Shown here: piece by piece, positions 12,701-60,360 of the stretch
Numbering within the stretch: position 1 is the first letter of the stretch
Layout: the number at the start of each line of letters is the position of its first letter
NCBI GenBank assembly: GCA_037441675.1
Contig: JBBIRS010000001.1
Coordinates: 224,001-288,000 of the forward strand
Origin: Planctomycetales bacterium
GTDB taxonomy: Bacteria; 4484-113
Direction: 5' to 3'
Length of the DNA: 64,000 bases
The notes under the pieces: generated by a model
What the model saw: the letters and a program-made list of their open reading frames with translations, nothing else
Database searches by the model: none
What the model was told of the DNA's origin: nothing
Translations under genes and position numbers: made by a program

Positions 12701-15700
12701 GTTGTTAGCCTCAATTCTCCGATTGTTAGACTAACCGTTTACGATATGTATGCGGAAGGTCTACCACCGGGAATTAGAATGCACCCGCCTGATAAAGTGA
12801 TACCACCAGGCATTTGGACAGCGATGTGGTTACCAAACGGCAGGCTTAATCCGGTATTTGGGGCAAATTGGGATCTACTTCCCGAGTCGAAGGACACTGA
12901 TGTCGGGGAAGTTGAACTGGTCGGAACTATTCCGCAAGTGCGTGCAGAAGTCGCTGTTGAACCTCCATCCATTGGCAGGGGTGATAACGTAGTAGTCCAC
13001 GTTGGTGCCTATGGCGGTAGGAGCCCCTACGATATTGATGTTCAAATTACCGGAGTAACATCTGGGACAGTGCTCTCCTATACCGCAAATGATTATGAAA
13101 GCAACACGCTCACCTTTGAAATTGGTCCCTTTACAGTTGAAGATGATTACAATGTAGCCCTTACCGTTACTGATTCCACTACTCCCATACCAACGGTAGA
13201 TGTTGATACAACATCACTAATTGTAGGCACAGCGGGAAGTCGTGGTCAGAGGTTTACGAACGTTCCCCAAATGGTTGCTTCTATCAACCTAGAGGAATTA
13301 GACTTGCCCAACAAAGGCTTCCGCGCCACTATGAGCGTAAGTGGCGGTAGAGGTGGATTAGGCTACTACTGGCAGGTATTTGATGAGAATGGACAAATAG
13401 CCCGCGACATAGAAGGTCGTGAGATGGTTTCCAACGAGCCCGCACCGGTCTTTCAATTTGACCCAAGTGCCGCGTCTGATGGCGTTTATATGGTAAAGGG
13501 GATGGTGATTGACCAGGCGGACGTTAATCCATACGTGGCATCCAATGTAACTATGGCGACGGATTCAGCGATGGTTGTCATTGCCTCAAGTGGTAGCGAC
13601 TTTGAAAACGAACCGATGGCTATTCTCTCTGCAACACCTCCGGGAAATGACGCTAGTGCCTTGGATACAACTCCTCAACCACCACCCGCAGTTTATGGCG
13701 CGGGGCCAGAGCCTATAATTACCACAGAAGCTGGCATACCCGGCGTAAGCCCTGAGATTGCTGGAGTTGGCTCAAGCATTGAAATACGAGGCTACAACTT
13801 TAACTCTAACCCAGCGAACAACATAGTTCACTTTGGTGGCGGAGTAAGTGCGGAAGCATACTCCGTGGAGGACGACCCAAGTTACGCCGGTCCACCTCCT
13901 GTAAGGCAAATTCTACGAGTTATTGTTCCTGATGGAGCTCGCTCCGGTTGGCTTTACGTCACTGTAAACGTTGGTGGTAATGGTGGCGTTTCAAATAGTG
14001 TTTTCTTCCAAACCCGTTTCGTGGTGAACTTTGATTTGATAGCTTCGGTTAGCCCGCAAGTGAATCACAGATACACCTACGAACTGGACTTTCAGGGTGA
14101 TGGAATCTATGACGTCCTGATTGACACCTCATCAACTGGAACCAATCCTCGTCAAATGCGTCACGAAAATAATCTTTCTCTCCAGCATGACTATGCTTCG
14201 GATGGTTTTGGAAACTACCAGGCGACATTGAAAGTAACAGATACAACTTCCGGTAGGGTGGAGATTGGTCATCAGCTGATTCAAGTGCGTAACCTAAGAC
14301 CCGTAATGACAAGTTCGAGTAATGCCCCGGAAGCTTTCGGCTTAATTACAAGCCTCATTCCTTCCATAGTGGAGAGATACCCAATACCAGGCTCTGGACT
14401 TACCGTGAGAACCTCTACAGGCGGTATGTCATCCTTATCAGGCATTCGCTATAAGTGGAATATAGACGGCAATGCTCGTGGAAGCTCAGTTCGGGCAACT
14501 TATCCAAGTCCAGCCAATCCGGGAAGAACCTTGAACGTGAACTTGTTTGCGACTGTCTCCGCTGATGCCACCTTTGCCAGCATTGGTATTCCAATAAAGT
14601 ATTTTGCCAACCTCAGATTCAACTTTACTACTACCGATACTGACATATTTAATATCACCTTAGATGAAGATGAAAGCCAGACCATCCTTGAATGGGACTT
14701 TAATGGTGATACAACGCCTGATTACATTAGTTCAGCAGGAGCAATAACCGCAAGCACCTATACAGCTCTTGCGAAAGCAATGGCGACTGCTGACCAAACT
14801 ATATTCAACACCATTGGCGACTACACAGGTTTTCTTAGGGTTTCCACTCGTGCAATTGTTACCGATAACAATAATAACCAGTATCCTGTAGCGATCACCT
14901 TCGCTACACCGCTTAATCTTCCCACAGTGACCATTAGCAACGTACTCAACACTTTATATCTTCCCTCCCTTGGCAATGACACTGATCATCTAATCTCTGT
15001 AACTGCGGTGGCGGAGGAAATTGACTCTGCCACAGGTGTTACAAGGTTTATTTCCGCCACGGATACAATTCACATTCCAAGCGCGAACAATCCGCTAAAT
15101 AACGTATTTGCATATTCAGGAACGGAGCCCCCATATAGCATTGGTAATACAGCGAGCACCATCAACTACACATTAATCGGAATATACGGTTCAGGCGCGC
15201 CATTGAATTTCTGGGCTGATATTAATACGGATGGATACTTTGAAATAGGTCAGATAAACTACTTTAATCCCCAGTCAGTTTCAAGAGTTACAGCCCAAAA
15301 TGATATTAATCGCTTGAACCCAGGTGCTACTAATTCTTTCCCGACTGAGCTGCCTGGTGTCAACTTCACCTTAATAAGCGTGCAAACCCCAATTGTAGCC
15401 GCAAAGGGAGTATACACTTCCTACGCACTGATCAAGGACGCCGGGGGAGTGGGTAGTGTTGGTGGGAGAAGCAGGACGCAAACCTACGCCTTTGAAACAC
15501 AAGAAATATTCGTGGGCGGTGGCAGAAGCGGAGGCGGTGGCGCATTAAGGCTCGCGGTTGATATTTTCCTTAATCCTCTGGTTGGCACGACAACCCAAGC
15601 GGTTGACTTCCAGTCCTTCGTCTCTGGTGGAACTCTGCCTTACAGTTACCAGTGGACAATTAGGCGGGTAGATACTGGTACAATAATCAACTTTGAAAAT

Positions 15701-49585: not shown

Positions 49586-50461
49586 CTAGTGTGTTACCAC
49601 GCCTTCTATGCCGAAGAGTTTTCCAAGAACCTTACCCACGAAAAAGGTAGCAACAGCAGTTCCAAGCATTAGCACTGTTGCCTCCAAGAACTCTCTCAAA
49701 AAGTTCCTATCAAAAACGACAGCGCTATAGAAGGTGAGCAGAGCAATCATCAATATCCCAATAATAACGGACACTAAAAAGGCAAGCGCCATATCAGCGG
49801 TTAAGAAGTATGGAAGTGCAAGCATTACTACCGAAACGATGTAGCTGAACCCTGTTGCAAATGCAGAGGTTATAGCGGAACGCTCTGGGTCTTGCTTTGC
49901 CTGAATGTAAGATGCGGAGCCCATTGAAATCGCTGCTGCGAAACCTACTATCAATCCTGAAATTCCAGCGACCAGAGTTGAGCCGGTCACTCCAAGGAAT
50001 CCCGCGTGGACGCCGGTAATCTCAACAATGGCATCAGCAAGCCCAAGGGCGATGAACCCAATGTACTTTATAATTTTATCTTTTAGCTGGCTGATGAAAA
50101 ACTTTTCATGCTCCTCCTCGTCCCTGATGAGGTTTACAAGCTCATCTTTATGAACCTCTGGAATTTCAGCAAGTGCTTTCTTATACTCTTCTAAAACCCT
50201 ATGCTCATGGCGCTCTAGAAACTTCAGTTCGAACGTCAATCCGAGAACGTATCTCATAGAGAAGAACAGCGCCAAGAGTGCCTTGTTCACCTTTGGCTCA
50301 TAGCCTTGCCCAAACTTCGCCCAGAAAGTGTAGTGAGCATACTCCTGCGCGGATAGCTTTTCTAGCATCTCTCTGTTATGCGAATTTCTTTCTCGCTTAG
50401 CTAGTTTCTGATAGAGCAGGTAATCCGCGTATTCATCATAAATATATTCCTTGGGTTTCAT
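49586..50461 (-). CDS. Ferritin/rubrerythrin-like + VIT1/CCC1 iron exporter (MbfA-like)
   Basis: ExxH di-iron motifs (EYAH, EEEH); LGLADAIVE, AAAISMGSASY and TMs of VIT1 family. Confidence 0.88.
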   Translation of the reverse strand: MKPKEYIYDEYADYLLYQKLAKRERNSHNREMLEKLSAQEYAHYTFWAKFGQGYEPKVNKALLALFFSMRYVLGLTFELKFLERHEHRVLEEYKKALAEIPEVHKDELVNLIRDEEEHEKFFISQLKDKIIKYIGFIALGLADAIVEITGVHAGFLGVTGSTLVAGISGLIVGFAAAISMGSASYIQAKQDPERSAITSAFATGFSYIVSVVMLALPYFLTADMALAFLVSVIIGILMIALLTFYSAVVFDRNFLREFLEATVLMLGTAVATFFVGKVLGKLFGIEGVVTH

Positions 50462-50639
50462 TAGGCAAAATTAGAAGATGAGTAAATCGTAAACCGCAAA
50501 AATTCTCATACCGCTTTACTCCACCGCATAATTACGCGCATAAACATAAATAAAATCACTAATTTCAGCAAAAAATAGCTGAGCTAAATTTTCCTCACGG
50601 TAGCCTGCAAGGCATCATACCCAGAGCTAATCTTAAGTT

Positions 50640-50712
50640 TACCCTGGGCGGGAATTGAACCCGCAACCCCCCGCTTAGGAGGCGGATGCTCTGTCCGTTG
50701 AGCTACCAGGGC
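50640..50712 (-). tRNA. tRNA-Arg (CCT)
   Basis: GCCCTGG acceptor, TAGCTCAACGGACAGAGC D arm, TCCGC-CTCCTAA-GCGGG anticodon arm, GGTTCAATTCC T arm; CCA not encoded. Confidence 0.95.
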
Positions 50713-50803
50713 GCTTCTTTCATTTTACCACGCAGAATCTTCCTCCCTTGGCGTTTATTTATGTTACTCTTTTCTCACCCTTTTGTCTTTCAAATTGGGA
50801 AAA

Positions 50804-50877
50804 CACGCCCGGCAGGATTCGAACCTGCGGCCTTCTGTTCCGTAGACAGACGCTCTAATCCTCTGAGCTACGGGCGC
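50804..50877 (-). tRNA. tRNA-Arg (ACG)
   Basis: GCGCCCG acceptor, TCTGT-CTACGGA-ACAGA anticodon arm, GGTTCGAATCC T arm; CCA not encoded. Confidence 0.95.
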
Positions 50878-50906
50878 TTCAACACTTTCCTCTTATGCCT
50901 ACCCCA

Positions 50907-50935
50907 ATGATAATTCTACTAAAATTGTCTGTCAA
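50907..50935 (-). promoter_or_regulatory. Sigma70-type promoter upstream of the tRNA-Arg genes
   Basis: Minus strand TTGACA - 17 nt - TATCAT. Confidence 0.65.
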
Positions 50936-51044
50936 TTCACTTAAATCAATTATAAAGCGTTAATTCCCCATTCTGGATAATCTTATATCTAGATGAACCT
51001 CCTCTTGAGTAAACTTGAATTCTCGGCAATAATCTATTTAGCTT

Positions 51045-52874
51045 ATGTATGAGAGCCTCGCGAATCTTTTTTCATCAATACTCCAAAATGTCCTAAAAAA
51101 GCTTGGTTTTGAGGAACAACCTGCCAGGCTCTCAAAGACGTCAACATTTCCCTCCACTCTTCCCTTTACACCCATCGTTCCGCCAAGAGAATGGGGCATT
51201 GCTTTCATCTTGCCTCAATTAGCAAAAGCAAATGCATTAAAACAAGTCGCAGAAGAGTTAAAGGCGGTCAAGGACTTGCCGGCAATTATCGCAAGATGCG
51301 AGGCGGAAGGGATTTATCTTAACCTCTACTTTGATCCAAAGCAGGCTTCTAACGAGGTCTTAAGCAAGATTTTATACTGCTACCATACCAATGACCACCT
51401 AAGCCTTTTTCAACAGGGAAAAAGAACGCGAGAACGCGTTATGATCGAATTCTCTCAGCCAAATACCCATAAGGAATTCCACGTTGGTCACTTGAGAAAT
51501 GTTCTCATTGGCAATGCGATTTCAAATTTATACTCCTTTCTAGGATATTCAGTGGTGCGTGCCAATTACTACGGCGACCACGGCATTCACATCGCCAAGA
51601 CGCTTTGGGGCTTCAAGAAGTTCTATAACTGCCAAATCCCAAGTGGTGTTGACCCCGCAGAATTCTTAGGTGAGGTTTATACACGCGCGGAAATTTCAAA
51701 CCGCGAAGCGGAAAACACTGAGGAGGGGAAAAAGATTGAAGAGGAGCAACTTGCAATTCTCGGAAATATTCTTCAAGACGGGACGGAGGAGAATAAACTT
51801 TGGCTAAAGACTCGCCAATACTTCCTTGCGAAATTCCGCGAAATCTACGAAGAGCTGGGAGTAAAGTTTGACGTTGAATTCTTTGAAAGCGAGGTGGAAA
51901 GGAAGGGTAGGGAGATTGTGAAAGAGCTTGTTGAAAGAGGCGTGGCGAGATGTGAAACTAGCGGTGAGTATGTTGGCACAATTTATGTGGATTTTTCTGA
52001 GCTCAACGCGCCACATCTCGGCAAAATGGTTCTGATTCGCTCCGACGGAACTAGCCTTTACCAGACAAAGGAGTTAGCCCTCGCCAAGGAAAAGTTCACG
52101 AGTTCATTCAAAGCCCGAGATGGTTCTGAAGGTGGAATTGACATTTCCCTTTACCTTGTGGGAAGCGAGCAGAAGCTTTACTTCCAACAACTTTTCAAAA
52201 TACTGGAAGCCTGGGGATTTCCCCAGGCAAAGAACTGTAAGCATGTATCTTATGAGCTTGTCCAGCTTGCGACAGGAAAGATGAGTAGTAGGGAGGGAAC
52301 TATTATCTCTTATAGCGATTTCCTAAACGAGGCAAAAGTGCGTGCGAGGAGGTTAACCGATGAGCGCGGCATCAGCGCCGATAAGGGAAACGTGTCCGCG
52401 CTTGTTGCTCTTGGCGCGATAAAATACGCCTTTCTCAAAGTAAGTCCAGATAAGCCTATTATCTTTGACTGGAATACCGCCCTCACCTTTGATGGCAACT
52501 CCGGCCCCTACATACAGTACGCCTACGCCCGTGCCAGAAAGCTCATTCTTGATTTTATCCCAAGCGTGCCTGATAACGCTTCTCTCATCAAAGATGGCGT
52601 TCATTTAACCGACGAGGAAATCTACCTTTGTCGTGTTCTGATGGATTTTCCAACAAAGTTGAAACAAGCTCTTTCAAGTTTCGCAGTTAGCATAATCTGC
52701 GGTTACATCTACGAACTTACGCGAGCCTTTACATCCTTTTACGATACCTGTCCAGTTCTCTCGTCAGATGAGCCTACCCGCACTTTTAGAAGAACCCTTG
52801 TCTTTTGCTTTGTTAGGGTGCTAGAGTGGTTAGCATCTGATATACTAGGGATTAAACTTCCGGAAGAGATGTAA
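51045..52874 (+). CDS. argS: Arginine-tRNA ligase
   Basis: IEFSQPNTHKEFHVGHLRN, RSDGTSLYQTKELA, KMSSREG, GNSGPYIQYAYAR, terminal LGIKLPEEM. Confidence 0.97.
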   Translation: MYESLANLFSSILQNVLKKLGFEEQPARLSKTSTFPSTLPFTPIVPPREWGIAFILPQLAKANALKQVAEELKAVKDLPAIIARCEAEGIYLNLYFDPKQASNEVLSKILYCYHTNDHLSLFQQGKRTRERVMIEFSQPNTHKEFHVGHLRNVLIGNAISNLYSFLGYSVVRANYYGDHGIHIAKTLWGFKKFYNCQIPSGVDPAEFLGEVYTRAEISNREAENTEEGKKIEEEQLAILGNILQDGTEENKLWLKTRQYFLAKFREIYEELGVKFDVEFFESEVERKGREIVKELVERGVARCETSGEYVGTIYVDFSELNAPHLGKMVLIRSDGTSLYQTKELALAKEKFTSSFKARDGSEGGIDISLYLVGSEQKLYFQQLFKILEAWGFPQAKNCKHVSYELVQLATGKMSSREGTIISYSDFLNEAKVRARRLTDERGISADKGNVSALVALGAIKYAFLKVSPDKPIIFDWNTALTFDGNSGPYIQYAYARARKLILDFIPSVPDNASLIKDGVHLTDEEIYLCRVLMDFPTKLKQALSSFAVSIICGYIYELTRAFTSFYDTCPVLSSDEPTRTFRRTLVFCFVRVLEWLASDILGIKLPEEM

Positions 52875-52876
52875 AG

Positions 52877-54637
52877 ATGGCGAGGCAGTATCGGACTTTT
52901 AATATAAGAAAACTAGTAAAGGCTCTTCAGGGTTTTTCAGTAAAGAGGGAAAGCCCAGGTGTTATCATCAACCGCCTTCTCTTAGATGCCTCTTACCTTC
53001 TGAAGCTTTCACCTGAGGAAGTGGAAGCGGAGTATGAGAAAAAGCCACTGCTCTTATTCGGCATACTAGAGATAAGTCAGCTTGCGTCACTATTTACGGT
53101 GGAAATAGTCAGTGATCGTGCATTTCTGGAGTACTTTCAAAAGCGCCCACCCACTTCTTCATTCCTTTTTTTCTTCTCTGAAGTTGAAGATTTATCTTAC
53201 TACTCGACCTCCGGTTTAAAAATCTACGTCGCTCAAGATCCAGCGGACATTGTCGCTTTTATTCAAAATGTTCTCAGGTATGCGCATCTTTTTTACAACT
53301 GGGCTCCTGGCGATATTTTTTCCCTTGGCAAAATTTTGCATACCAAGTTTCTTGCGGGTGCAGTAATCTGGAATGAGCCAGATGAGTTTGAATCTCATAT
53401 AATCCGAGCCCTATCAGCGCTGGATTTGCCTTTGTTCTCAAGAATCTCTTTGTATCCCTATCTCAACTATATAAACGTTGTTGATATGGACGATCTATTC
53501 AACAAGGTTCGTGCGTTAAAACCGACTATCGGAGCTCACAAGGCTAAAGGCGAAGGAGAATCTCAAAAGCTAAACACTTCACTTCCCAAGCCTAAAGTCT
53601 ACGGAGGCACATACTCTTCCTTCTTCGTTGTTCGGGAAATGGGTGGAACAGATGGCGTTGAAGTAAGGGGAAACGAGAGTGAGAACGTTGGCTTGATTGT
53701 GGATATTGGCGATAAAAACGTTGACATCACACTTTCTCATTATATTGAAGAAGATCTGATGCAAGTATTTTCCCACCATCCATGGATGCGTTTTTCTGAG
53801 GATAGTTTCTTTTCGATAACAGTTACAAAGGCAGATGTTGAACCGGTAGAGTTGGGAAGGGAAGTTTACGATAAACTGAAGGAGCGACTTCTCCTCAACC
53901 AAGTGGCGGTAAGCCTAATTTTTGATACCCCAAGGCTAACTACCTTAAAGCCGACAATATCTGCCTACCAGGAAGAGAGAAAAAATGCGCTTCAAAGGCG
54001 CTCCGACCTTGACGCTCCACTTCTAATCTGCACCTACTGCCAAAGGTACTGCAAGAATGGATTTTGCTTCGTATCAGTGAATCATCCGCCCCAGTGTGAA
54101 CTATCCTATGACGCAGTTCGCGCCTCTGCGCTTCTTACCAATTCAACCGAGGCGTTCTCTATTGAAAAAGGCGAAATAATAGATAAACAAAGACTTCAAT
54201 TCACTGGAGTTAACAAATTTGCCCGCATCCTATCCGAGGGAGAGATAAAGCATGTGAATCTGCAGTCCATCCTCGCAGACCCACCTCCAACAACTGCCTA
54301 CGCCCAGAATATTGCCTATCTGAATGAAGATGTTAGCGGAATACTTATCCTTTCAAGAGATTTTGAAGGTCTCTCGCCAGATAGAAAGACCTACTTTGGC
54401 TTATTAAAAGAAGTGGTGGGCGCGCAGGTTCCAGGGGTAATGGGGGTTTCGGACGCCTATCTTAAATCCAAAGAATTCCTCTCTTCCGAAGGTGGCCTAG
54501 GGCGAGTGGTGTGGATGCCTTCAGTCCTAAAGAAACGTCTTGGATTTGAAAGTTTTCTTCACATAGCCACAGAACGTGAGTGTAATAATATGCTCCTTCT
54601 AAAAGCTTTTCTTAAGGAGCGTGGATTCTCTTTTTAA
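52877..54637 (+). CDS. Divergent acetyl-CoA synthase (AcsB/CdhC)-like protein lacking the Ni-binding CGC motif
   Basis: CTYC-x8-C-x9-C, IEKGEIID...GVN, GAQVPG, YLKSKEFLSSEGGLGRVVWMPSVLKKRL match the ACS C-terminal domain. Confidence 0.8.
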   Translation: MARQYRTFNIRKLVKALQGFSVKRESPGVIINRLLLDASYLLKLSPEEVEAEYEKKPLLLFGILEISQLASLFTVEIVSDRAFLEYFQKRPPTSSFLFFFSEVEDLSYYSTSGLKIYVAQDPADIVAFIQNVLRYAHLFYNWAPGDIFSLGKILHTKFLAGAVIWNEPDEFESHIIRALSALDLPLFSRISLYPYLNYINVVDMDDLFNKVRALKPTIGAHKAKGEGESQKLNTSLPKPKVYGGTYSSFFVVREMGGTDGVEVRGNESENVGLIVDIGDKNVDITLSHYIEEDLMQVFSHHPWMRFSEDSFFSITVTKADVEPVELGREVYDKLKERLLLNQVAVSLIFDTPRLTTLKPTISAYQEERKNALQRRSDLDAPLLICTYCQRYCKNGFCFVSVNHPPQCELSYDAVRASALLTNSTEAFSIEKGEIIDKQRLQFTGVNKFARILSEGEIKHVNLQSILADPPPTTAYAQNIAYLNEDVSGILILSRDFEGLSPDRKTYFGLLKEVVGAQVPGVMGVSDAYLKSKEFLSSEGGLGRVVWMPSVLKKRLGFESFLHIATERECNNMLLLKAFLKERGFSF

Positions 54638-54640
54638 CCT

Positions 54641-55462
54641 ATGAACGATCATCAATTCTTACTTCCAAAGAGTAAACTCAGGGTCTGCGCACTTCAGTTA
54701 TCCTTATTCGCAAACTCAGTTCAAGATAATCTTTCAAAAATCAAAATGCACCTAAGCGAAATAGAATCGGGTTCAGTTGACCTTGTAGTCGTGCCCGAGC
54801 TTGCCAACACCTTTTACAATTATGAGGTAATAGAGTCGTTGGAAGAGGGTGAAGAGGAGGAATTTCTTTCTCCGCTTCAATCATTCTGTAAAGAAAAGAA
54901 TTCTGTGCTGGTAGTGGGATTAGCAGTACGTGAGGGTGGGTGTCTGAGAAACCGAGCTTATTTCATAAGTTCCGATGGCACGGTTAAAGGTCATTACGAC
55001 AAAATGCACTTAATATCACTCCTCGATGAGGATCTTCACTTCACGCCTGGAAATTCAACAAAAATCTTTGATGTTAAAGATTGGAAAGTTGGAATTGGGA
55101 TTTGTTTTGATATCAGATTTCCCGAGCTTTTCATAAATTATGCTCTTGATAATTGCAATCTGATTGTCCTTCCAGCTTGTTTTCCATATGAGCGTAGGAA
55201 CCATTGGCGCCATCTCAACTTAGCTCGTGCCCAGGAAGGACAGTTCTTCTTTCTTGGTGCAAATATGGGTGGAACCGGCTCTACAAAATGGGGCGATAAA
55301 ACTTACGGTGGAAGCATTCTTGCCTCGCCCGATTCCTGCCCAATCGCGGAGTTACCCTGGGGAAGCGAGGGAATCCTTACTTGCGAGATTGACCCGAAGG
55401 AAATTGCTATTCAAAAGTCACTCTTTGATCTAATGGCTAATCGTAATCGCCCGCCACTCTGA
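54641..55462 (+). CDS. Carbon-nitrogen hydrolase (nitrilase/amidase family)
   Basis: E-K-C triad: VVPELA, YDKMHL, GICFDIRFPE. Confidence 0.93.
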   Translation: MNDHQFLLPKSKLRVCALQLSLFANSVQDNLSKIKMHLSEIESGSVDLVVVPELANTFYNYEVIESLEEGEEEEFLSPLQSFCKEKNSVLVVGLAVREGGCLRNRAYFISSDGTVKGHYDKMHLISLLDEDLHFTPGNSTKIFDVKDWKVGIGICFDIRFPELFINYALDNCNLIVLPACFPYERRNHWRHLNLARAQEGQFFFLGANMGGTGSTKWGDKTYGGSILASPDSCPIAELPWGSEGILTCEIDPKEIAIQKSLFDLMANRNRPPL

Positions 55463-55522
55463 GAAGGGTTTATTATGAACGCAGTCCCTTAATCTAACTG
55501 CCGAAGATGATTCTCAATATGT

Positions 55523-57688
55523 TCACTTTGGATTTATTCCGCCCTGTCCTGATGTTTTTTGTTTGGTTGCCTCTTTTGGTTGAATGTTGATGGGAATCAC
55601 TTTCATATTGTATATCACCCACTTCGTAGGGACACTGATCTTAAATTCTCTCTCTTCCTTCTCTTCCTCGCTTTTTTCATCGTTCTTCTTGTCTTGGTTA
55701 GGTTGAGGCGGTTCCATAGGCTTCATAATGCTTACCACAACCTCGTTATTTAGGGGCGTTGCAAGAGCCTTTTCAATTATCTTATCTAAGTCATGAAGCG
55801 TAGAATCAACATTTACAAATGCCCCAGAACCAAAAAGCATTTTCCCCTTTCCGCCAAACTCGTTAAGAAGCGAAACGAGTGAACCGCCTCCACGGATATA
55901 TAAATTTGTCATGCCAATGGGAAAATCCTCCGGAATAGTCACATAAATCTTTTCGAAGATTGGTTCCTGCCTAAAGGGTTGTAGTCTAACTTCAATTTCA
56001 AGTGTCTCACCCGGATAAACGGTTTTAGGAGGTTCAGCATAAGGATAGCCACCCATCTCGCCTTCCTGCGGTGGGGGAGGCTCTACCATTTGCTGTAAAG
56101 GAGCTTGCAATGGGCTTCCGATGCCTTCTATCTGGTCTTCTTCTTCCCCTTCTCCTTCTGATTCATTTTCTTTTTGTTCTTCGGGACTTTTTTCTTCCGT
56201 GCCCTCTTTGGCTTCCTCAACCTGCTCTCCCTGACCCTGTTCCGCTTCCTTCTTCTCTGCTTCCTTTGCCTTATCCTTTTCAGTTACGATCTTTGCGTCG
56301 TCAATGCTTGCGTTAACCCTATTGCGGGTAAAGTCTATCTTGATGTTGAACTCAGTTATCTTCACCTCGCGGTAGATGTTATTCGTAAGAAGCGATGCAA
56401 AGGGTAGAGCCTCATCCCATAGTATGTTCACAGGTGAAATCTCATCATAAAAGTAATTAGTTCTTTTAACTGGTTCTTTCAAGCCGATACCATTAATGTA
56501 AAACTCTAGCCGAGTAGTTCCGCCTTTAGCCATATCAACGACTCGAGTAAAAGCCTCGCTTACCACAAACCCAATCAAGATATCCGAGAGGAATGGTTCT
56601 CGGACAACCTCAGCGTTAAACTCCCTTGACCGTCTTAGGTCTATGTCATTTACCACAACCTTGATAGGCAGAAGGTCTGCTTTCTCGCCAATAAGTCCAC
56701 CAACCGCGCTCAATCTATCGCTGGTTATTGCGCCTACTGAGTTTAACCTAAAACCGTCCTTGTAGGCTCGCTCTACGCTTTTGTTTGTGTAGGCTATGTA
56801 AGCTTTTCCCATGGAAAGAGAAGTATCACCGGATAGAAGAAAAGGATGCCCGAAGGCTAATACCTGTCCCATCTCATCAACATAGGTAACAGTTCCCACT
56901 GCGGATAGCTCAATATCACCATGCACCAATGAGACCGCAAGGGCATCACCGGGTTTAAGCGGAGTGTCTTTAGCTGGGTCATAGAGCAAGCCCTTGCCCT
57001 GAAATGAACCACCAGGTGCTCCCCCTACAACTTCAACAAACGGGTTATCCTTAAGTGCTTCTCGCAATAGTTCAATGGACTTTTGATTCGCGGAACGAAC
57101 GATTAGCGGTGCTGCCAGTGGTTTCAACTGAAGAGAGGTGTTATTTTTGTTGAACTGTTGTGATAAATCTTGAGGTGATTCACTCGGCGGTAGTGGGTTT
57201 TCGTCATTTGAGCTTCCCGGTAAGAGTAGAAACCCCGACTTCCTTTTAGTTTTTGGTTCAGGAATAACGGTATTTCCAGAGTAGTCAACCTTGCCCCGCC
57301 TGGGCAGAGCTGAAAGCATACTTGTAATTGGTGTTATTCCGCCAATATGAGTATCGCTAAATGGCACAGCGGTGGATACTGCCCCTAGAAGTTTCCCATC
57401 TATATACACGGGACTGCCGGAGTAACCCGCTGCAATACCATTACTCATTTCCACAACTGGTCCACTAAATCGCGCTAGGATGAGTGGCCCGCCATCAAAT
57501 CCAGCATTTGGCAAAACGTCAATAATTTCCACGTCAAAAGTTTCAACTTTAACTCCCCGTATCACCGTTTTGCCAATGCCTTTCTGCCCAACTTTAAGTT
57601 GTTCTAAGGGATAGAAATCTACCCCTGCTAACGCTTCAATGCTGAAAAGATTTATTAGTAATAGTAGTAATAGACCAACTTTTCTCAT
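55523..57688 (-). CDS. Exported SpoIVB-like peptidase S55 domain protein
   Basis: Signal peptide; GIGKTVIRG, GIAAGYSGSPVYIDGKLLGAVS, LAFGHPF; acidic E/K/P linker. Confidence 0.9.
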   Translation of the reverse strand: MRKVGLLLLLLINLFSIEALAGVDFYPLEQLKVGQKGIGKTVIRGVKVETFDVEIIDVLPNAGFDGGPLILARFSGPVVEMSNGIAAGYSGSPVYIDGKLLGAVSTAVPFSDTHIGGITPITSMLSALPRRGKVDYSGNTVIPEPKTKRKSGFLLLPGSSNDENPLPPSESPQDLSQQFNKNNTSLQLKPLAAPLIVRSANQKSIELLREALKDNPFVEVVGGAPGGSFQGKGLLYDPAKDTPLKPGDALAVSLVHGDIELSAVGTVTYVDEMGQVLAFGHPFLLSGDTSLSMGKAYIAYTNKSVERAYKDGFRLNSVGAITSDRLSAVGGLIGEKADLLPIKVVVNDIDLRRSREFNAEVVREPFLSDILIGFVVSEAFTRVVDMAKGGTTRLEFYINGIGLKEPVKRTNYFYDEISPVNILWDEALPFASLLTNNIYREVKITEFNIKIDFTRNRVNASIDDAKIVTEKDKAKEAEKKEAEQGQGEQVEEAKEGTEEKSPEEQKENESEGEGEEEDQIEGIGSPLQAPLQQMVEPPPPQEGEMGGYPYAEPPKTVYPGETLEIEVRLQPFRQEPIFEKIYVTIPEDFPIGMTNLYIRGGGSLVSLLNEFGGKGKMLFGSGAFVNVDSTLHDLDKIIEKALATPLNNEVVVSIMKPMEPPQPNQDKKNDEKSEEEKEEREFKISVPTKWVIYNMKVIPINIQPKEATKQKTSGQGGINPK

Positions 57689-57874: not shown

Positions 57875-58897
57875 CTACTCGCGTCCGCCCTTGGTGTCCT
57901 CACCTGGAACAAGAACTAGCACGATTCCATCGCGAACGCCGTTCGGATTGCCGTAAGCGAGCTGATCAACAGACTCGCCGGGCCTTGCAGAGCTATAGGG
58001 AGAACCCAGATACCTATTGGTTGCCTGGTCCCTATCCTCTCTGGTTGAACGCGTCCATGACGGAATTTCAAAACGTGCACCAGTCTGTCCACCAGCGCCT
58101 CCGCGTGAAGTCTGGAACTGGATAGTAGGCTCAGGTCCTAGAATGTCCTTGCCCTTTGTGCGGATTGCGCCATATCCACCGAGCATGTACTGGTCAATTG
58201 AAGTTGGGATAACTGGCTCGTCCGCCCTAAAGGTAGACTCTCTAGCGACCATAACTGGCCCTGCCGACTTGTAGAAAAACTCGCCTGGGAGGAATGGATT
58301 AGGCTTGTTAGCTCTCCACATGTCCCAGAACTTGTACTCTTGATCGGCATAGGAATTAAACGTGATTTGCCGGCCAGTTGAACGATCGGTAACGACGTAA
58401 TTGATGAACCTTAAATCCGCCAAGACGTTACCCATCAAGACGCAGTAAGGACCAAATCTTGTTCCCTGAATGGAGGAACGGTCAGTGGTCCCGTTGCGAA
58501 GGGGGTCATTAACCTCTTCCTGAAACCTGTGTATTGCATAACCATTGGTTGCAAATGGGTTCTTTGGATAGGAGTCAATGTAACCCTTTCTCAATAGCGG
58601 ATCAGAGAGGTTCTGCCGATCATCAACATCTCTAATGTTAATGAAAGGATTTGCGGAAACACCTTGAATCTGAGAGTATTTTCCCTGTCCACCAATTAGG
58701 TAATCAGGATAAAACCCGCCGGTATCAACCGCAAATCTCTCCACAGAGAGTTGAATGTTGTGCAGGTTACTCTTAACCTCCGCTTCCTTCGCTTTGTCCT
58801 TTACCTTGATGTAGTTCGGTAGGGCTATGGCTGCGAGGATACCAATAATTACTATGACTACGAGTAGCTCAATTAGGGTGAAACCCTTTCGACTCAT
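57875..58897 (-). CDS. Large GspG-like pilin, probable major subunit
   Basis: MSRKG/FTLIELLVVIVIIGILAAIALP; KAKEAEVKSNLHNIQLSVERFAVDTGGFYP; GYIDSYPKNPF; AGGAGGTG RBS, own promoter and terminator. Confidence 0.9.
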   Translation of the reverse strand: MSRKGFTLIELLVVIVIIGILAAIALPNYIKVKDKAKEAEVKSNLHNIQLSVERFAVDTGGFYPDYLIGGQGKYSQIQGVSANPFINIRDVDDRQNLSDPLLRKGYIDSYPKNPFATNGYAIHRFQEEVNDPLRNGTTDRSSIQGTRFGPYCVLMGNVLADLRFINYVVTDRSTGRQITFNSYADQEYKFWDMWRANKPNPFLPGEFFYKSAGPVMVARESTFRADEPVIPTSIDQYMLGGYGAIRTKGKDILGPEPTIQFQTSRGGAGGQTGARFEIPSWTRSTREDRDQATNRYLGSPYSSARPGESVDQLAYGNPNGVRDGIVLVLVPGEDTKGGRE

Positions 58898-58977
58898 CAA
58901 ATGTTCACCTCCTACAAAATCTTACAATCATTCTGGACGCAAAATACCCTTTTGGGAGGCTACTCCCCGTCACAAAT

Positions 58978-59006
58978 AATGTAACACAGCTTTAGCATTT
59001 CGTCAA
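58978..59006 (-). promoter_or_regulatory. Sigma70-type promoter of the major pilin candidate
   Basis: Minus strand TTGACG - 17 nt - TACATT with TG extension. Confidence 0.65.
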
Positions 59007-59142
59007 TGTGGATTCGGAAAAAATCGCAAAGAAAATTAGTTCTGAAATAACTTGAGCTTTTCAACAATTGAGCGTTCCACTCTAAAAGAGCGCGCGAAAA
59101 ATCTCAACGTTTCAACTATGTGGCAGTTTAATTGTAAAAATC

Positions 59143-60360
59143 TTATCTAATCACATCTACCAGCTTGAAGATTGGAAGGTACAGTGAGATAACAATGGTT
59201 CCCACAACCGCGCCAATAATCATAATCATCACAGGCTCAATAATGCTGGCTAGTCCTCTAATTGTGGCGTCAATCTCTTGGTCGTAATAATCGGAAATCT
59301 TATAGAGTATGTCTTCAAGGTTACCAGCCTCTTCGCCAACCGCAATCAAGTTCGTCACAATCGGCGGGAAAACACCTGTTCGTTTCATTGGCGCGTGAAT
59401 GGACTCTCCTTCCCTAATTCTTTCCCTAATGTACATTATTGCTCTTTGCACGACGTTGTTGCTCGCAGTGTTTTTTGCCACCTCTAAAGCCTCTAGGATT
59501 GGCACGCCTGATTGTGTCAGTGTCCCAAACGTCCTCGTGAACCTTGTAATTGCTACTTTTCTTGCCAGAGGACCGAAAATTGGTATTCTAAGGATTATGG
59601 GGTCAAAGATAATGTGTCCCCACTTGGAATGTCGAAAACGATAGAAAAGCACTAGGAAAACCGGAATTGTTAGCAGGTAGTACCAGTTGTTCACGAGCCA
59701 GTCGCTAAGCGCCAACATTCTTCTCGTAAGCTCCGGTAGTTGCGTTTCACCCTCTGAAAGTTCCTCATAAAAGGCTGCAAACTGTGGCACTATGTATAAA
59801 AGCATAAATAATGAAATCGCGGTCGCAAATGTCAAGACCACGATTGGGTAAACCATGGCGCTCTTAACTTTATGCCTCAGCTCTAGCTCTTTTTCATAAA
59901 AGACCGCAACCCTTTCGAGAATCTTGTCCAATGCACCACCAATTTCACCTGCCTGAACCATTGATACGAAAAATGCTGAAAAGGCGCGAGGATGTTTTTT
60001 CATTGCTTGATGCAAGGTTTCTCCGCCCTGGATGTCCATTTTGATTTTGTGAAGTATGGAGCGAAAACTTGAGTTTTGCGTTTGTTCCTCAATTGTATCA
60101 ATTGCCTCCGCAAGTGTTAATCCAGCATTTAGAAGTAGCGCAAACTGTCTGGAGAAAAGCGTGAGCTCTTTAAGTCCAATTCGGAATAACTTTTCAATTA
60201 TTATCAGAGGATTAAATGGTCTTCTCTTTTCAACGATGCGGACTACAAAGAAACCCTCGTTTCTTAGGGCTTCCATCACCGCACGTGGATTATCCGCCTC
60301 AACCGAGCTCTGTATAACTTTGCCCGCAGAATCTCTTGCAGTGTATACAAAAGTTCTCAT
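59143..60360 (-). CDS. pilC: Type IV pilus platform protein (PilC/GspF)
   Basis: FSRQFALLLNAG, MVQAGEIGGALD, KVKSAMVYP, VGEEAGNL, IIEPVMI, LYLPIF. Confidence 0.95.
   Translation of the reverse strand: MRTFVYTARDSAGKVIQSSVEADNPRAVMEALRNEGFFVVRIVEKRRPFNPLIIIEKLFRIGLKELTLFSRQFALLLNAGLTLAEAIDTIEEQTQNSSFRSILHKIKMDIQGGETLHQAMKKHPRAFSAFFVSMVQAGEIGGALDKILERVAVFYEKELELRHKVKSAMVYPIVVLTFATAISLFMLLYIVPQFAAFYEELSEGETQLPELTRRMLALSDWLVNNWYYLLTIPVFLVLFYRFRHSKWGHIIFDPIILRIPIFGPLARKVAITRFTRTFGTLTQSGVPILEALEVAKNTASNNVVQRAIMYIRERIREGESIHAPMKRTGVFPPIVTNLIAVGEEAGNLEDILYKISDYYDQEIDATIRGLASIIEPVMIMIIGAVVGTIVISLYLPIFKLVDVIR

What the first reader, a model, noticed from the sequence alone, without database searches (positions are those of the whole stretch)
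52877..54637. Acetyl-CoA synthase homologue that keeps the [4Fe-4S] ligands but has lost the Ni-Ni site, with no Wood-Ljungdahl neighbours
Seen: CTYCQRYCKNGFCFVSVNHPPQC (54029-54097) has C-x2-C-x8-C-x9-C spacing, and downstream motifs (IEKGE, GVN, KEFLSSEGGLGRVVWMP..LKKRL) track AcsB/CdhC. Established: that spacing gives the A-cluster cubane ligands (C506/509/518/528 in Moorella), and the Ni site needs PxTSCGC (C595/C597). Here the equivalent position reads PPPTTAYAQNI (~54281-54313) with no Cys. The ORF is intact and packed between argS (2-bp gap) and a C-N hydrolase (3-bp gap); no CODH or corrinoid genes are in the window. Inference: a repurposed Fe-S/CoA-binding pseudo-ACS (sensor or new enzyme) that pipelines would misannotate as a carbon-fixation marker.
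Basis: partly seen in the sequence, partly recalled or inferred. Interest (0 to 1): 0.8.

Follow-up and report, generated by a model that had tools for sequence, protein, structure and literature searches.

The report
Nickel-site-less acetyl-CoA synthase homologue
An intact, strongly conserved gene encodes a full-length relative of the carbon-fixing enzyme acetyl-CoA synthase that keeps the iron-sulfur ligands but has lost the nickel site, in a small bacterial phylum without the rest of that pathway, so it must do something else, still unknown.

Summary
ORF 52877-54637 (+, 586 aa) is a real homologue of acetyl-CoA synthase (ACS). It hits Pfam PF19436 at E 1.4e-30. A model with pLDDT 93 aligns over residues 7-586 with bacterial ACS (Z about 30), covering all three domains.

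It keeps the four cubane cysteines (C385, C388, C397, C407). The Cys-Gly-Cys nickel ligands read Thr-Ala-Tyr. The A1 segment that carries three of the CO-alcove residues is missing. By motif mapping, the A2 Arg/His implicated in acetyl transfer read Glu/Met.

This is not decay:
- 22 of the 24 species genomes of its phylum carry the gene, and none has C-x-C.
- dN/dS is 0.04-0.07 in close pairs.
- It diverges about as slowly as ArgRS.

No CFeSP gene was found in 0 of 24 genomes. A Prismane/CODH-family gene was found in 3 of 24, none in the window's family. The window's genome also lacks FTHFS.

The gene lies 2 bp behind the genome's only argS, and this pairing is kept in three families of the phylum. 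In most relatives a small YbjN-like gene follows, but not here.

Function is unknown. My best guess is a nickel-free Fe-S binding or regulatory protein. I found no description in print. I rate it a new variant of a known kind, interest about 0.62.

The parts
52877..54637 (+). ACS-like ORF (ACSL), 586 aa, stop included
   Evidence: ORF. PF19436 at E 1.4e-30. AF2 model pLDDT 93.3, pTM 0.88. VIA-align Z 29.8 to 7nyp_A over model residues 7-586.
52895..53533 (+). A1-like N-terminal domain (residues 7-219). It is shortened relative to bacterial ACS.
   Evidence: VIA-align to ACS N-terminal-domain structures: 9g03_D Z 15.0, rmsd 3.6, 206 aligned; 6yua_A Z 14.8. In alignment A2 the segment carrying the alcove Gly/Ile/Val of canonical ACS is gapped in this family.
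53579..54634 (+). A2 + A3-like core (residues 235-586), equivalent to the whole archaeal CdhC core
   Evidence: VIA-align to 9c0t_E: Z 29.7, rmsd 2.9, 352 aligned, model 235-586 against chain 19-396. phmmer.
53639..53671 (+). Family-specific invariant motif in A2 (M255 G256 G257 x D259 ... R264 G265)
   Evidence: At least 96% conserved in 23 family rows and under 20% in 42 other ACS rows, except G265, which is shared with other ACS.
54029..54097 (+). C-x2-C-x8-C-x9-C, the four [4Fe-4S] cubane ligands (C385, C388, C397, C407), plus non-conserved C392
   Evidence: Aligned with the cubane cysteines of solved ACS/CdhC. Invariant in 13 of 13 close orthologues and kept in families f1-f3 of the phylum.
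54293..54301 (+). T473-A474-Y475 at the place of the Cys-Gly-Cys nickel ligands
   Evidence: phmmer alignments to 9c0s_E and 8cmw_B. Family states are TAY, TAI and SAE.
54581..54583 (+). C569, a family-specific conserved cysteine of unknown role
   Evidence: Conserved in 96% of 23 family rows and 5% of 42 other ACS rows.
51045..52874 (+). argS (arginine-tRNA ligase), the only full copy in the genome. It ends 2 bp before ACSL.
   Evidence: TIGR00456 at 354 bits against a cut-off of 262. One match over the cut-off in the genome. The adjacency is kept in relatives.
54641..55462 (+). C-N hydrolase family gene, 3 bp after ACSL
   Evidence: PF00795 at E 7.9e-41. All NCBIfam equivalogs score below their cut-offs. 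It lies downstream in f1 and f3 loci.
50640..50877 (-). Two tRNA-Arg genes (CCU at 50640-50712, ACG at 50804-50877), divergent from argS
   Evidence: ARAGORN. tRNA-Arg genes lie near argS-ACSL in 5 of 7 f1 loci and 3 of 3 f3 loci, and in 0 of 4 f2 loci.

Best explanation
The gene encodes a nickel-free paralogue of bacterial-type acetyl-CoA synthase, with all three domains (A1, A2, A3).

Shown:
- It has the ACS fold.
- It keeps the four cysteines that hold the [4Fe-4S] cubane.
- It lacks both cysteines that bridge the two nickels.
- It lacks the A1 segment that forms most of the CO alcove.
- Its genome and phylum lack CFeSP, and (bar three genomes with a Prismane-family gene) CODH.
- It is kept under strong purifying selection in nearly every genome of its phylum.

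Inferred:
- It cannot assemble an A-cluster and does not make or cleave acetyl-CoA.
- It probably still binds a plain [4Fe-4S](Cys)4 cluster.
- It probably works through a new conserved patch of polar and charged residues in A2, the A2-A3 hinge and A3 (M255-G-G-x-D259, R264, D276, R353, Y364, Y411, K447, R450). This patch lies in the domains that bind acetyl-CoA in true ACS.

My most likely mechanism, at about 45%: a non-catalytic ligand- or partner-binding (regulatory or scaffold) Fe-S protein. It would use the domain motions of the ACS scaffold, with the cluster serving as a structural or redox-sensing element. It is probably co-transcribed with the cell's only argS.
For: Fold and homology. 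Full-length Z is 29.8, the A1 domain alone scores Z 15, and the CdhC core scores Z 29.7 at rmsd 2.9.

Cubane cysteines are invariant in 13 of 13 close orthologues and in families f1-f3.

The Ni ligands are replaced. States are TAY, TAI and SAE in every family member examined.

The alcove segment is gapped in the family in alignment A2. The residue list comes from passages of PMC11321310.

The Arg/His motif E-R-x-x-H of canonical ACS reads E291-E292-D-L-M295. The role of these residues comes from passages of bioRxiv 10.1101/2024.08.05.606187.

Partner genes:
- Own genome: 0 Prismane/CODH, 0 CdhD, 0 FTHFS, 1 ACS domain.
- Phylum: CdhD in 0 of 24 genomes, Prismane family in 3 of 24.

Selection and spread:
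- A match in 22 of 24 genomes of the phylum.
- dN/dS 0.043-0.067 in the six closest pairs, with dS 0.47-1.30.
- 51-55% identity to six relatives, where ArgRS is 47-50% and PilC 81-85%.
- The family is one clade (support 1.0), which fits a single ancient loss.

New conserved patch.

A member without any cubane Cys still keeps the fold-level match and most A2 patch residues (L013 and P0027). This points to a role that does not rest on redox catalysis.
Against: No experiment exists. Cluster binding is inferred from ligands only.

I could not read model coordinates, so I could not test whether the family-specific residues cluster in space.

The strong conservation of a polar patch would fit an enzyme as well as a binder.

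The Arg/His mapping runs through motif spacing in the C. hydrogenoformans chain and is not a direct alignment to the C. autoethanogenum chain. The same two residues are also absent from the roughly 610-650 aa class that does keep C-G/S-C, so their absence is a weak criterion.

A Phe at the place of alcove F229 (F139) and an aromatic at F512 (Y391) are kept.

Co-transcription with argS is inferred from the 2-bp gap alone. The promoter and terminator scan was at chance level.
Confidence: 0.6

Rival explanations
1. It is a new enzyme. The ACS scaffold, with a plain [4Fe-4S] cluster for electron transfer or substrate positioning, catalyses a different reaction at the A2-A3 cleft. This could be on a CoA thioester or another nucleotide-bearing substrate, perhaps linked to the neighbouring C-N hydrolase (and to enoyl-CoA hydratase in family f3).
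For: Sixteen family-specific, almost invariant residues, many of them charged or aromatic, lie in A2, the hinge and A3. Purifying selection is very strong. In f3 loci the gene order is ACSL, small gene, C-N hydrolase, enoyl-CoA hydratase, glutamine synthetase. True ACS binds acetyl-CoA mainly on A2 (passages).
Against: All four cubane ligands are Cys, so no iron is free for substrate. One lineage (L013, P0027) lost all four Cys but kept the protein. The His and Arg proposed for thiol and acetyl handling are gone. The neighbours beyond argS and the small gene differ between families.
Confidence: 0.27
2. It is a factor coupled to arginine decoding. It would bind or regulate ArgRS or tRNA-Arg, or modify tRNA-Arg, with the Fe-S cluster acting as sensor or cofactor.
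For: It lies directly behind the only argS. The same pairing is seen in every f1 locus that reaches upstream: 6 of 6 and 5 of 5, where 2 further loci start inside the gene. It is also seen in 3 of 4 f2 loci and 2 of 3 f3 loci scanned, at only 31-35% protein identity. Two tRNA-Arg genes flank argS here and lie nearby in f1 and f3.
Against: This is synteny only. Gene order in a small phylum can be inherited without any functional link. The pairing is broken in genus g9 and in L009. The protein is near neutral to slightly acidic (pI 5.9; family range 5.5-8.4), with no basic surface suggested. No known tRNA- or synthetase-binding domain was detected.
Confidence: 0.1
3. It is still an acetyl-CoA synthase (or decarbonylase) that builds a metal site from other ligands.
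For: It has the full ACS fold and keeps the cubane ligands, including the Cys that bridges to the proximal Ni in true ACS. Aromatic residues are kept at the places of F229 and F512.
Against: No thiolate is at either bridging position in any member, and the loop differs between families (TAY, TAI, SAE), which does not fit a conserved metal site. There is no CFeSP in 0 of 24 genomes and no CODH in the window's family. There is no FTHFS in the genome. Scores lie far below all curated ACS cut-offs.
Confidence: 0.02
4. It is a decaying relic of a lost Wood-Ljungdahl pathway, or an annotation artefact.
For: The pathway partners are absent. One orthologue (in G019) shows an in-frame TGA. One lineage lost the cubane Cys.
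Against: The frame is intact here and in 20 other genomes, with full-length matches and no stops. dN/dS is 0.04-0.07. There are 185 invariant columns among 13 orthologues of 50-70% identity. The loss of C-x-C is shared by the whole clade, so it is old.
Confidence: 0.01

Closest known systems
Bacterial acetyl-CoA synthase AcsB (Moorella thermoacetica and Carboxydothermus hydrogenoformans ACS; PDB 1oao, 1ru3, 7nyp, 7zkj)
   Same: It has the same three-domain architecture over the whole length: Z 29-30 with 552-560 residues aligned, and Foldseek E 3e-33. It has the same C-x2-C-x8-C-x9-C cubane motif. Many structural motifs of A3 are kept, including the G-G...W-M-P stretch.
   Different: Identity is only 18-21%. 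It has no Cys-Gly-Cys. It is about 140 residues shorter, with the A1 segment carrying the alcove Gly/Ile/Val missing. It has no E-R-x-x-H motif. It gives no PF03598 or PF18537 hit (against the canonical hits). It has no CODH or CFeSP partners.
Archaeal CdhC (ACDS beta subunit, Methanosarcina thermophila, PDB 9c0s/9c0t)
   Same: This is the best sequence match among solved structures (E 3.5e-27). It is also the best local superposition (rmsd 2.9 A over 352 residues).
   Different: CdhC has no A1 domain and keeps Cys-Gly-Cys. The window protein has an A1-like domain, so it is of the bacterial type.
An uncharacterised class of ACS homologues of about 610-650 aa from metagenomes (P0024, P0025, P0029, P0031 and others)
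   Same: These are the nearest relatives outside the family. Profile E-values are 6e-61 to 1e-30 with matches from about residue 110-125 to the end. They group with the family in the tree (support 0.98). They also lack the E-R-x-x-H motif.
   Different: They keep C-G-C or C-S-C and the A1 alcove segment. Nothing is known to me about their function or hosts.
P0037/P0169 (707-722 aa), sister to the family in the tree
   Same: It has four cubane Cys and S-A-R in place of C-G-C, the same Ser/Thr-Ala start as the family.
   Different: It is longer and has a Lys-rich tail. The sister position is weakly supported (0.60). One source names it as an ACS beta subunit.
ACS without CODH in Dehalococcoides (incomplete Wood-Ljungdahl pathway).
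   Same: It is an ACS homologue in a genome that lacks CODH.
   Different: As I recall, that enzyme keeps the Ni site and CFeSP and cleaves acetyl-CoA. Here both are absent.

Membership tests
Acetyl-CoA synthase (AcsB/CdhC), A-cluster enzyme | ACS fold and sequence homology (A2 and A3; A1 in bacteria) | tested here: met
   PF19436 at E 1.4e-30. PDB phmmer E 3.5e-27. Z 29.8 over residues 7-586, with A1 alone at Z 15.
Acetyl-CoA synthase (AcsB/CdhC), A-cluster enzyme | Four Cys ligands of the [4Fe-4S] part of the A-cluster | tested here: met
   C385, C388, C397 and C407 align with the cubane Cys of solved ACS. They are invariant in 13 of 13 orthologues.
Acetyl-CoA synthase (AcsB/CdhC), A-cluster enzyme | Cys-Gly-Cys that bridges the proximal and distal Ni | tested here: not met
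   The position reads T473-A474-Y475. No member of the family has C-x-C.
Acetyl-CoA synthase (AcsB/CdhC), A-cluster enzyme | Hydrophobic CO alcove (Moorella G145, I146, V149, F229, F512, per PMC11321310) | tested here: not met
   The segment with the Gly/Ile/Val is gapped in the family in alignment A2. The F229 place is F139, and Leu in 2 of 13 orthologues. The F512 place is Y391. This is alignment-based and was not checked on coordinates.
Acetyl-CoA synthase (AcsB/CdhC), A-cluster enzyme | A2 Arg and His near the A-cluster proposed for acetyl transfer (C. autoethanogenum R383 and H386, per bioRxiv 10.1101/2024.08.05.606187) | tested here: not met
   E-R-x-x-H of canonical rows aligns with E291-E292-D293-L294-M295. 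The mapping of numbers is inferred from motif spacing. The motif is also absent from a class that keeps C-G-C, so this is a weak criterion.
Acetyl-CoA synthase (AcsB/CdhC), A-cluster enzyme | Score above the curated equivalog or subfamily cut-offs | tested here: not met
   NF003379 138 against 372 bits; TIGR00316 116 against 356; NF040764 125 against 800; NF007078 125 against 809.
Acetyl-CoA synthase (AcsB/CdhC), A-cluster enzyme | Partner genes: CODH (AcsA/CooS/CdhA) and corrinoid Fe-S protein (AcsC/D, CdhD/E) | tested here: not met
   Own genome (90.9% complete): 0 PF03063, 0 PF03599, 0 FTHFS. Phylum: PF03599 in 0 of 24 genomes; PF03063 in 3 of 24, with frames of 555-567 aa. I did not test whether those three are CODH or hybrid-cluster protein.
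Acetyl-CoA synthase (AcsB/CdhC), A-cluster enzyme | Ni content and CO/acetyl-CoA exchange or synthase activity | not testable with these tools
   This needs anaerobic expression, metal analysis and assays.
Pfam PF19436 (ACS/CODH beta subunit C-terminal domain) | Score above the gathering threshold | tested here: met
   107.1 bits against 25, residues 382-556. Orthologues in f2-f4 score 75-130 bits.

The most novel reading that the evidence does not exclude
The ACS scaffold has been re-used, after one ancient loss of the nickel site, as an Fe-S protein that is indispensable to a whole candidate phylum. It would be functionally tied to arginine decoding. It sits with the only argS and near two tRNA-Arg genes, and would act on or regulate ArgRS or tRNA-Arg, for example by coupling charging or a tRNA modification to redox or CoA status.

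More widely, nickel-less, cubane-keeping ACS homologues would form several unrecognised protein families with non-carbon-fixation roles. They make up 50 of the 142 cluster representatives retrieved here.
Probability: 0.1. Interest if true: 0.85.

Novelty: new variant of a known kind. Interest (0 to 1): 0.62.

Why it matters
ACS is treated as a marker of the Wood-Ljungdahl pathway and as one of the oldest enzymes. A full-length, strongly selected ACS homologue without the Ni-Ni site, in a phylum without CODH/CFeSP, shows two things. The scaffold has a second life outside carbon fixation. Domain-level hits (PF19436, COG- or KO-style calls) should not be counted as carbon-fixation potential unless the Cys-Gly-Cys is checked.

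It also offers metalloenzyme research a natural 'cubane-only' ACS, which could separate the roles of the [4Fe-4S] part and the nickels.

The side observation deserves its own survey. About a third of the retrieved ACS-family representatives lack C-x-C but keep the cubane Cys. That figure is biased by the query and depends on the alignment.

Tried and rejected
- **Expression.** The look-up of sequencing runs on 51045-55462 listed no run, so no RNA holder was listed and read laying was not used.
- **Binding of ACSL to the YbjN-like neighbour.** Complex prediction, with a relative's pair and alignments A3 and A4, gave no verdict (score 0.00, mark 0.32). This is no evidence either way.
- **First structure model.** With only 13 sequences it was poor (pLDDT 58.3) and was replaced by the 66-sequence model.
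- **ESM Atlas.** It returned only ACS/CdhC clusters at 0.77-0.80, below its own trust level.
- **The search of earlier findings by sequence.** Nothing was shown.
- **Literature.** Seven searches found no paper on ACS homologues lacking the Ni ligands. The terms 'AcsB-like', 'CdhC-like' and 'acetyl-CoA synthase-like' had 0 occurrences. The library lacks most subscription journals, so this is not proof of absence. The evolutionary study of CODH/ACS that I recalled was not among the hits, so I could not check it.
- **Promoter and terminator scan of 50400-55700.** It was at chance level.
- **Small downstream gene in the window's genome.** It was not found with one protein query or with an HMM over 12,116 six-frame ORFs.
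- **Nucleic-acid binding from charge.** The protein has pI 5.9, so there is no support.
- **Naming of relatives by sources.** Ten look-ups gave only 'hypothetical protein' or nothing, except P0169.
Full report
**Observation**

The window holds an intact ORF at 52877..54637 (+) of 586 aa. It lies 2 bp after argS (51045..52874) and 3 bp before a C-N hydrolase gene (54641..55462). At 54029-54097 lie C385-x2-C388-x8-C397-x9-C407, with one extra, non-conserved Cys at 392. At 54281-54313 lies a Pro-rich loop without cysteine.

The similarity to acetyl-CoA synthase (ACS) is not chance:
- Pfam PF19436 at E 1.4e-30, 107 bits against a gathering score of 25, residues 382-556.
- Four NCBIfam ACS/CdhC models at E 1e-33 to 3e-40.
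- Seventeen distinct PDB sequences of ACS/CdhC at E 3.5e-27 to 1.6e-13.

In the printed alignments the cubane cysteines of the solved enzymes align with C385, C388, C397 and C407. Their Ser-Cys-Gly-Cys aligns with T472-T473-A474-Y475.

**Anatomy**

A first AlphaFold2 model built on 13 orthologues was poor (pLDDT 58). With a 66-row alignment (A2: the family, its nearest relatives and canonical ACS) the model reached pLDDT 93.3 and pTM 0.88.

Foldseek against the PDB gave 31 matches at E 0.001 or better. All of the listed ones (ranks 1-30) are ACS, CdhC or ACS fragments. The best is 7zkj_B at E 3.4e-33.

VIA-align on Foldseek's list gave the domain map:
- Model 7-586 on C. hydrogenoformans ACS 30-726: Z 29.8, 557 aligned.
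- Model 7-219 on isolated ACS N-terminal domains: Z 14.4-15.0, rmsd 3.4-3.6.
- Model 235-586 on archaeal CdhC 19-396: Z 29.7, rmsd 2.9.
- Model 472-586 on the C-terminal ACS fragment: Z 12.8, rmsd 1.7.

So this is a bacterial-type, three-domain ACS homologue, not a CdhC-like two-domain one. Its A1 domain is shortened. Pfam finds neither PF03598 nor PF18537, which the canonical hits carry.

**What is kept and what is lost**

Kept:
- The four cubane ligands.
- An aromatic residue at the place of the swinging Phe next to the cluster (Y391).
- A Phe at the place of the A1 alcove Phe (F139; Leu in 2 of 13 orthologues).

Lost:
- Both Ni-bridging cysteines.
- The A1 segment that in canonical ACS carries the alcove Gly, Ile and Val. 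The residue list is in passages of PMC11321310. In alignment A2 the family is gapped there, whereas the roughly 610-650 aa relatives and canonical ACS are not.
- The E-R-x-x-H motif of A2, which here reads E291-E292-D293-L294-M295. A preprint on C. autoethanogenum CODH/ACS proposes that this Arg and His stabilise the Ni-acetyl and deprotonate CoA (bioRxiv 10.1101/2024.08.05.606187, passages only). I inferred the numbering link from motif spacing in the C. hydrogenoformans chain.

The adenine-stacking Trp of that paper aligns, in the structure-consistent MAFFT alignment, with F312. It is Leu in family f2 and Phe or Leu in f3. This is inconclusive for CoA binding.

All curated ACS models score far below their cut-offs.

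**Relatives and selection**

A word-indexed search of 5.8 billion proteins scored 7,998 candidates and gave 17 hits at E 0.001 or better. The window's own protein and 12 full-length orthologues (584-590 aa, 50-69% identity) make up 13 of them. The other 4 are canonical ACS of 734-736 aa.

The 13 share 185 invariant columns. These include the four cubane Cys, C569 and the Cys-free loop.

The genome belongs to a GTDB-type phylum with only 24 species genomes. The family profile found a match in 22 of the 24, and in 12 of the 13 high-quality genomes. The two without a match are 62% and 90% complete. Record titles of relatives call them Planctomycetales bacterium MAGs, one of them '4484_113'. That the phylum is the placeholder phylum 4484-113 is my inference.

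Orthologues from the other families (f2, f3, f4) are 30-35% identical over the full length. Their states:
- f1: four cubane Cys kept, Ni loop reads T-A-Y.
- f2: four cubane Cys kept, loop reads T-A-I.
- f3: four cubane Cys kept, loop reads S-A-E.
- f4: the two sequences lost all four cubane Cys as well, yet remain full-length.

No member has C-x-C.

Pairwise dN/dS (NG86) for the six closest pairs is 0.043-0.067 at dS 0.47-1.30. Pairs involving the window's own copy are saturated. Against six relatives the protein is 51-55% identical. ArgRS is 47-50%, the C-N hydrolase 41-54% and PilC 81-85%.

A FastTree of the 66 rows (628 columns, LG+gamma, midpoint root) makes the family one clade (support 1.0). 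It is sister to P0037, which reads S-A-R (support 0.60). Both lie inside a group of roughly 610-650 aa homologues that keep C-G-C or C-S-C (support 0.98). The simplest reading is one old loss of the Ni ligands at the base of the clade.

**Absence of the pathway**

In the window's genome (1.99 Mb, 18 contigs, 90.9% complete):
- One ACS domain, this gene.
- No Prismane/CODH family member.
- No CdhD/CFeSP.
- No formate-tetrahydrofolate ligase.
- One pterin-binding protein of 291 aa, which I take to be dihydropteroate synthase rather than AcsE (untested).
- Five matches to the N-terminal domain of 2-oxoacid:ferredoxin oxidoreductases, so an anaerobic, ferredoxin-based metabolism is likely.

In the phylum, CdhD is found in 0 of 24 genomes. 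The Prismane family is found in 3 of 24, all in f2, with frames of 555-567 aa. That length fits hybrid-cluster protein, which I did not test.

**Context**

argS is the only full ArgRS gene in the genome. It lies directly upstream of ACSL on the same strand in:
- the window;
- 6 of 6 genome loci of f1;
- 5 of 5 metagenome loci that reach upstream, while 2 further loci begin inside ACSL;
- 3 of 4 f2 loci and 2 of 3 f3 loci scanned with Pfam.

Two tRNA-Arg genes (CCU, ACG) lie divergently upstream of argS. tRNA-Arg genes are also nearby in 5 of 7 f1 loci, 3 of 3 f3 loci and 0 of 4 f2 loci.

A small acidic gene of about 130-185 aa follows ACSL directly in most relatives. Two f2 copies hit PF10722 (YbjN) at E 7.5e-6 and 2.3e-4. 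An HMM built from three f1 copies finds all f2 and f3 copies at E 1e-14 to 5e-9 among 1,100 ORFs, and nothing else. The f4 neighbour is not found.

This small gene is missing in the window, in the closest relative L022 (68% identity) and in L006/L026. It was not found anywhere in the window's genome. The C-N hydrolase follows in f1 and f3. In f3 an enoyl-CoA hydratase and a glutamine synthetase come next.

**What distinguishes the family**

I compared 23 family rows with 42 other ACS rows. Sixteen positions from the start of A2 onward are at least 90% conserved in the family and under 20% in the rest: M255, G256, G257, D259, R264, I274, D276, R353, Y364, F396, Y411, K447, A449, R450, P471 and C569. 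Three more lie in A1 (N32, D37, P57).

Most of the A2 ones are also kept in the Cys-less f4 sequences. I could not read the model's coordinates, so I do not know whether they form one site.

**Interpretation**

Shown: the protein is an ACS-fold protein that cannot form the Ni-Ni part of the A-cluster, has no partners for CO or methyl supply, and is kept by strong selection across a phylum.

Inferred: it binds a plain [4Fe-4S] cluster and has a function unrelated to acetyl-CoA synthesis. I place:
- about 45% on a non-catalytic binding, regulatory or scaffold role;
- about 27% on a new enzyme;
- about 10% on a role tied to ArgRS or tRNA-Arg;
- about 2% on residual ACS activity;
- about 1% on decay;
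- the remainder on something I have not thought of.

The survival of a cluster-less member and the all-Cys coordination argue against cluster-based catalysis. The highly conserved polar patch keeps the enzyme reading alive.

**A wider pattern, seen in passing**

The full HMMER search of 1.84 billion cluster representatives with the family profile gave 313 hits at E 0.001 or better. I examined 149 of the best 150 (P0002, a close orthologue, was set aside). Of these, 142 cover the Ni loop. Ninety-two have C-x-C: 68 CGC, 18 CSC, 3 CRC, 2 CAC and 1 CHC. Fifty do not. About ten of the fifty belong to this family and one is its sister. Forty-six of the fifty (and all but one of those outside this family) still show four cubane Cys.

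In the tree, five such sequences (P0064, P0070, P0099, P0106, P0118) lie within the canonical clade of about 700 aa, which implies independent losses.

Caveats: the ranking favours sequences like the query, and a profile alignment can slip by a residue or two in this loop.

**Novelty**

Seven literature searches found no description of Ni-ligand-less ACS homologues or of this family. The sources that name relatives call them hypothetical proteins. The library does not hold most subscription journals.

I rate it a new variant of a known kind. It belongs to the ACS superfamily, but a defining feature of the enzyme family was tested and not met.

Noticed in passing
window 50640-50712 and 50804-50877 (minus strand): Two tRNA-Arg genes (anticodons CCU and ACG) sit back to back with the genome's only argS. 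tRNA-Arg genes also lie within a few kb of argS-ACSL in 5 of 7 f1 loci and 3 of 3 f3 loci, but in 0 of 4 f2 loci.
   Followed up: partly
window 54638-54640 (junction of ACSL and the C-N hydrolase). Compare L003:7752-8141, L010:7367-7798, L018:7013-7450.: Most relatives in families f1-f3 carry a small acidic YbjN-like gene between ACSL and the next gene. It is absent here, in L022 and in L006/L026, and was not found in the window's genome.
   Followed up: yes
L013:16-1734, and protein P0027: The f4 orthologues (572 aa) have lost all four cubane cysteines as well as the Ni ligands, yet stay full-length and keep most family-specific A2 residues.
   Followed up: partly
proteins P0018-P0166: Of 142 ACS-family cluster representatives covering the Ni loop, 50 lack C-x-C, and about 39 of those lie outside this family and its sister. 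Forty-six of the 50 keep four cubane Cys. The set is biased by the query and the loop alignment may slip.
   Followed up: partly
window 51045-52874: The ArgRS shows no Pfam hit to the usual N-terminal ArgRS domain at E up to 1. Only the catalytic and DALR domains are found. ArgRS frames in f2 are much longer (675-759 aa), though some of those starts may be called too far upstream.
   Followed up: no
window 2086-25888: A large type IV pilus / type II secretion-like cluster. It holds five prepilin-type genes in a row, a 2,849-aa ORF (9740-18289) with no Pfam hit, a 1,152-aa secretin and a PilM-like gene. A further pseudopilin and a PilC/GspF gene lie at 57875-60360.
   Followed up: no
G019:C3:180278-181981 (locus L009): The orthologue in this f3 genome shows one in-frame TGA inside the match. 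There argS is not adjacent.
   Followed up: no
window 54641-55462: The C-N hydrolase matches eleven NCBIfam models (omega-amidase-like, N-carbamoylputrescine amidase, deaminated glutathione amidase and others), all far below their cut-offs, so its substrate is open.
   Followed up: no
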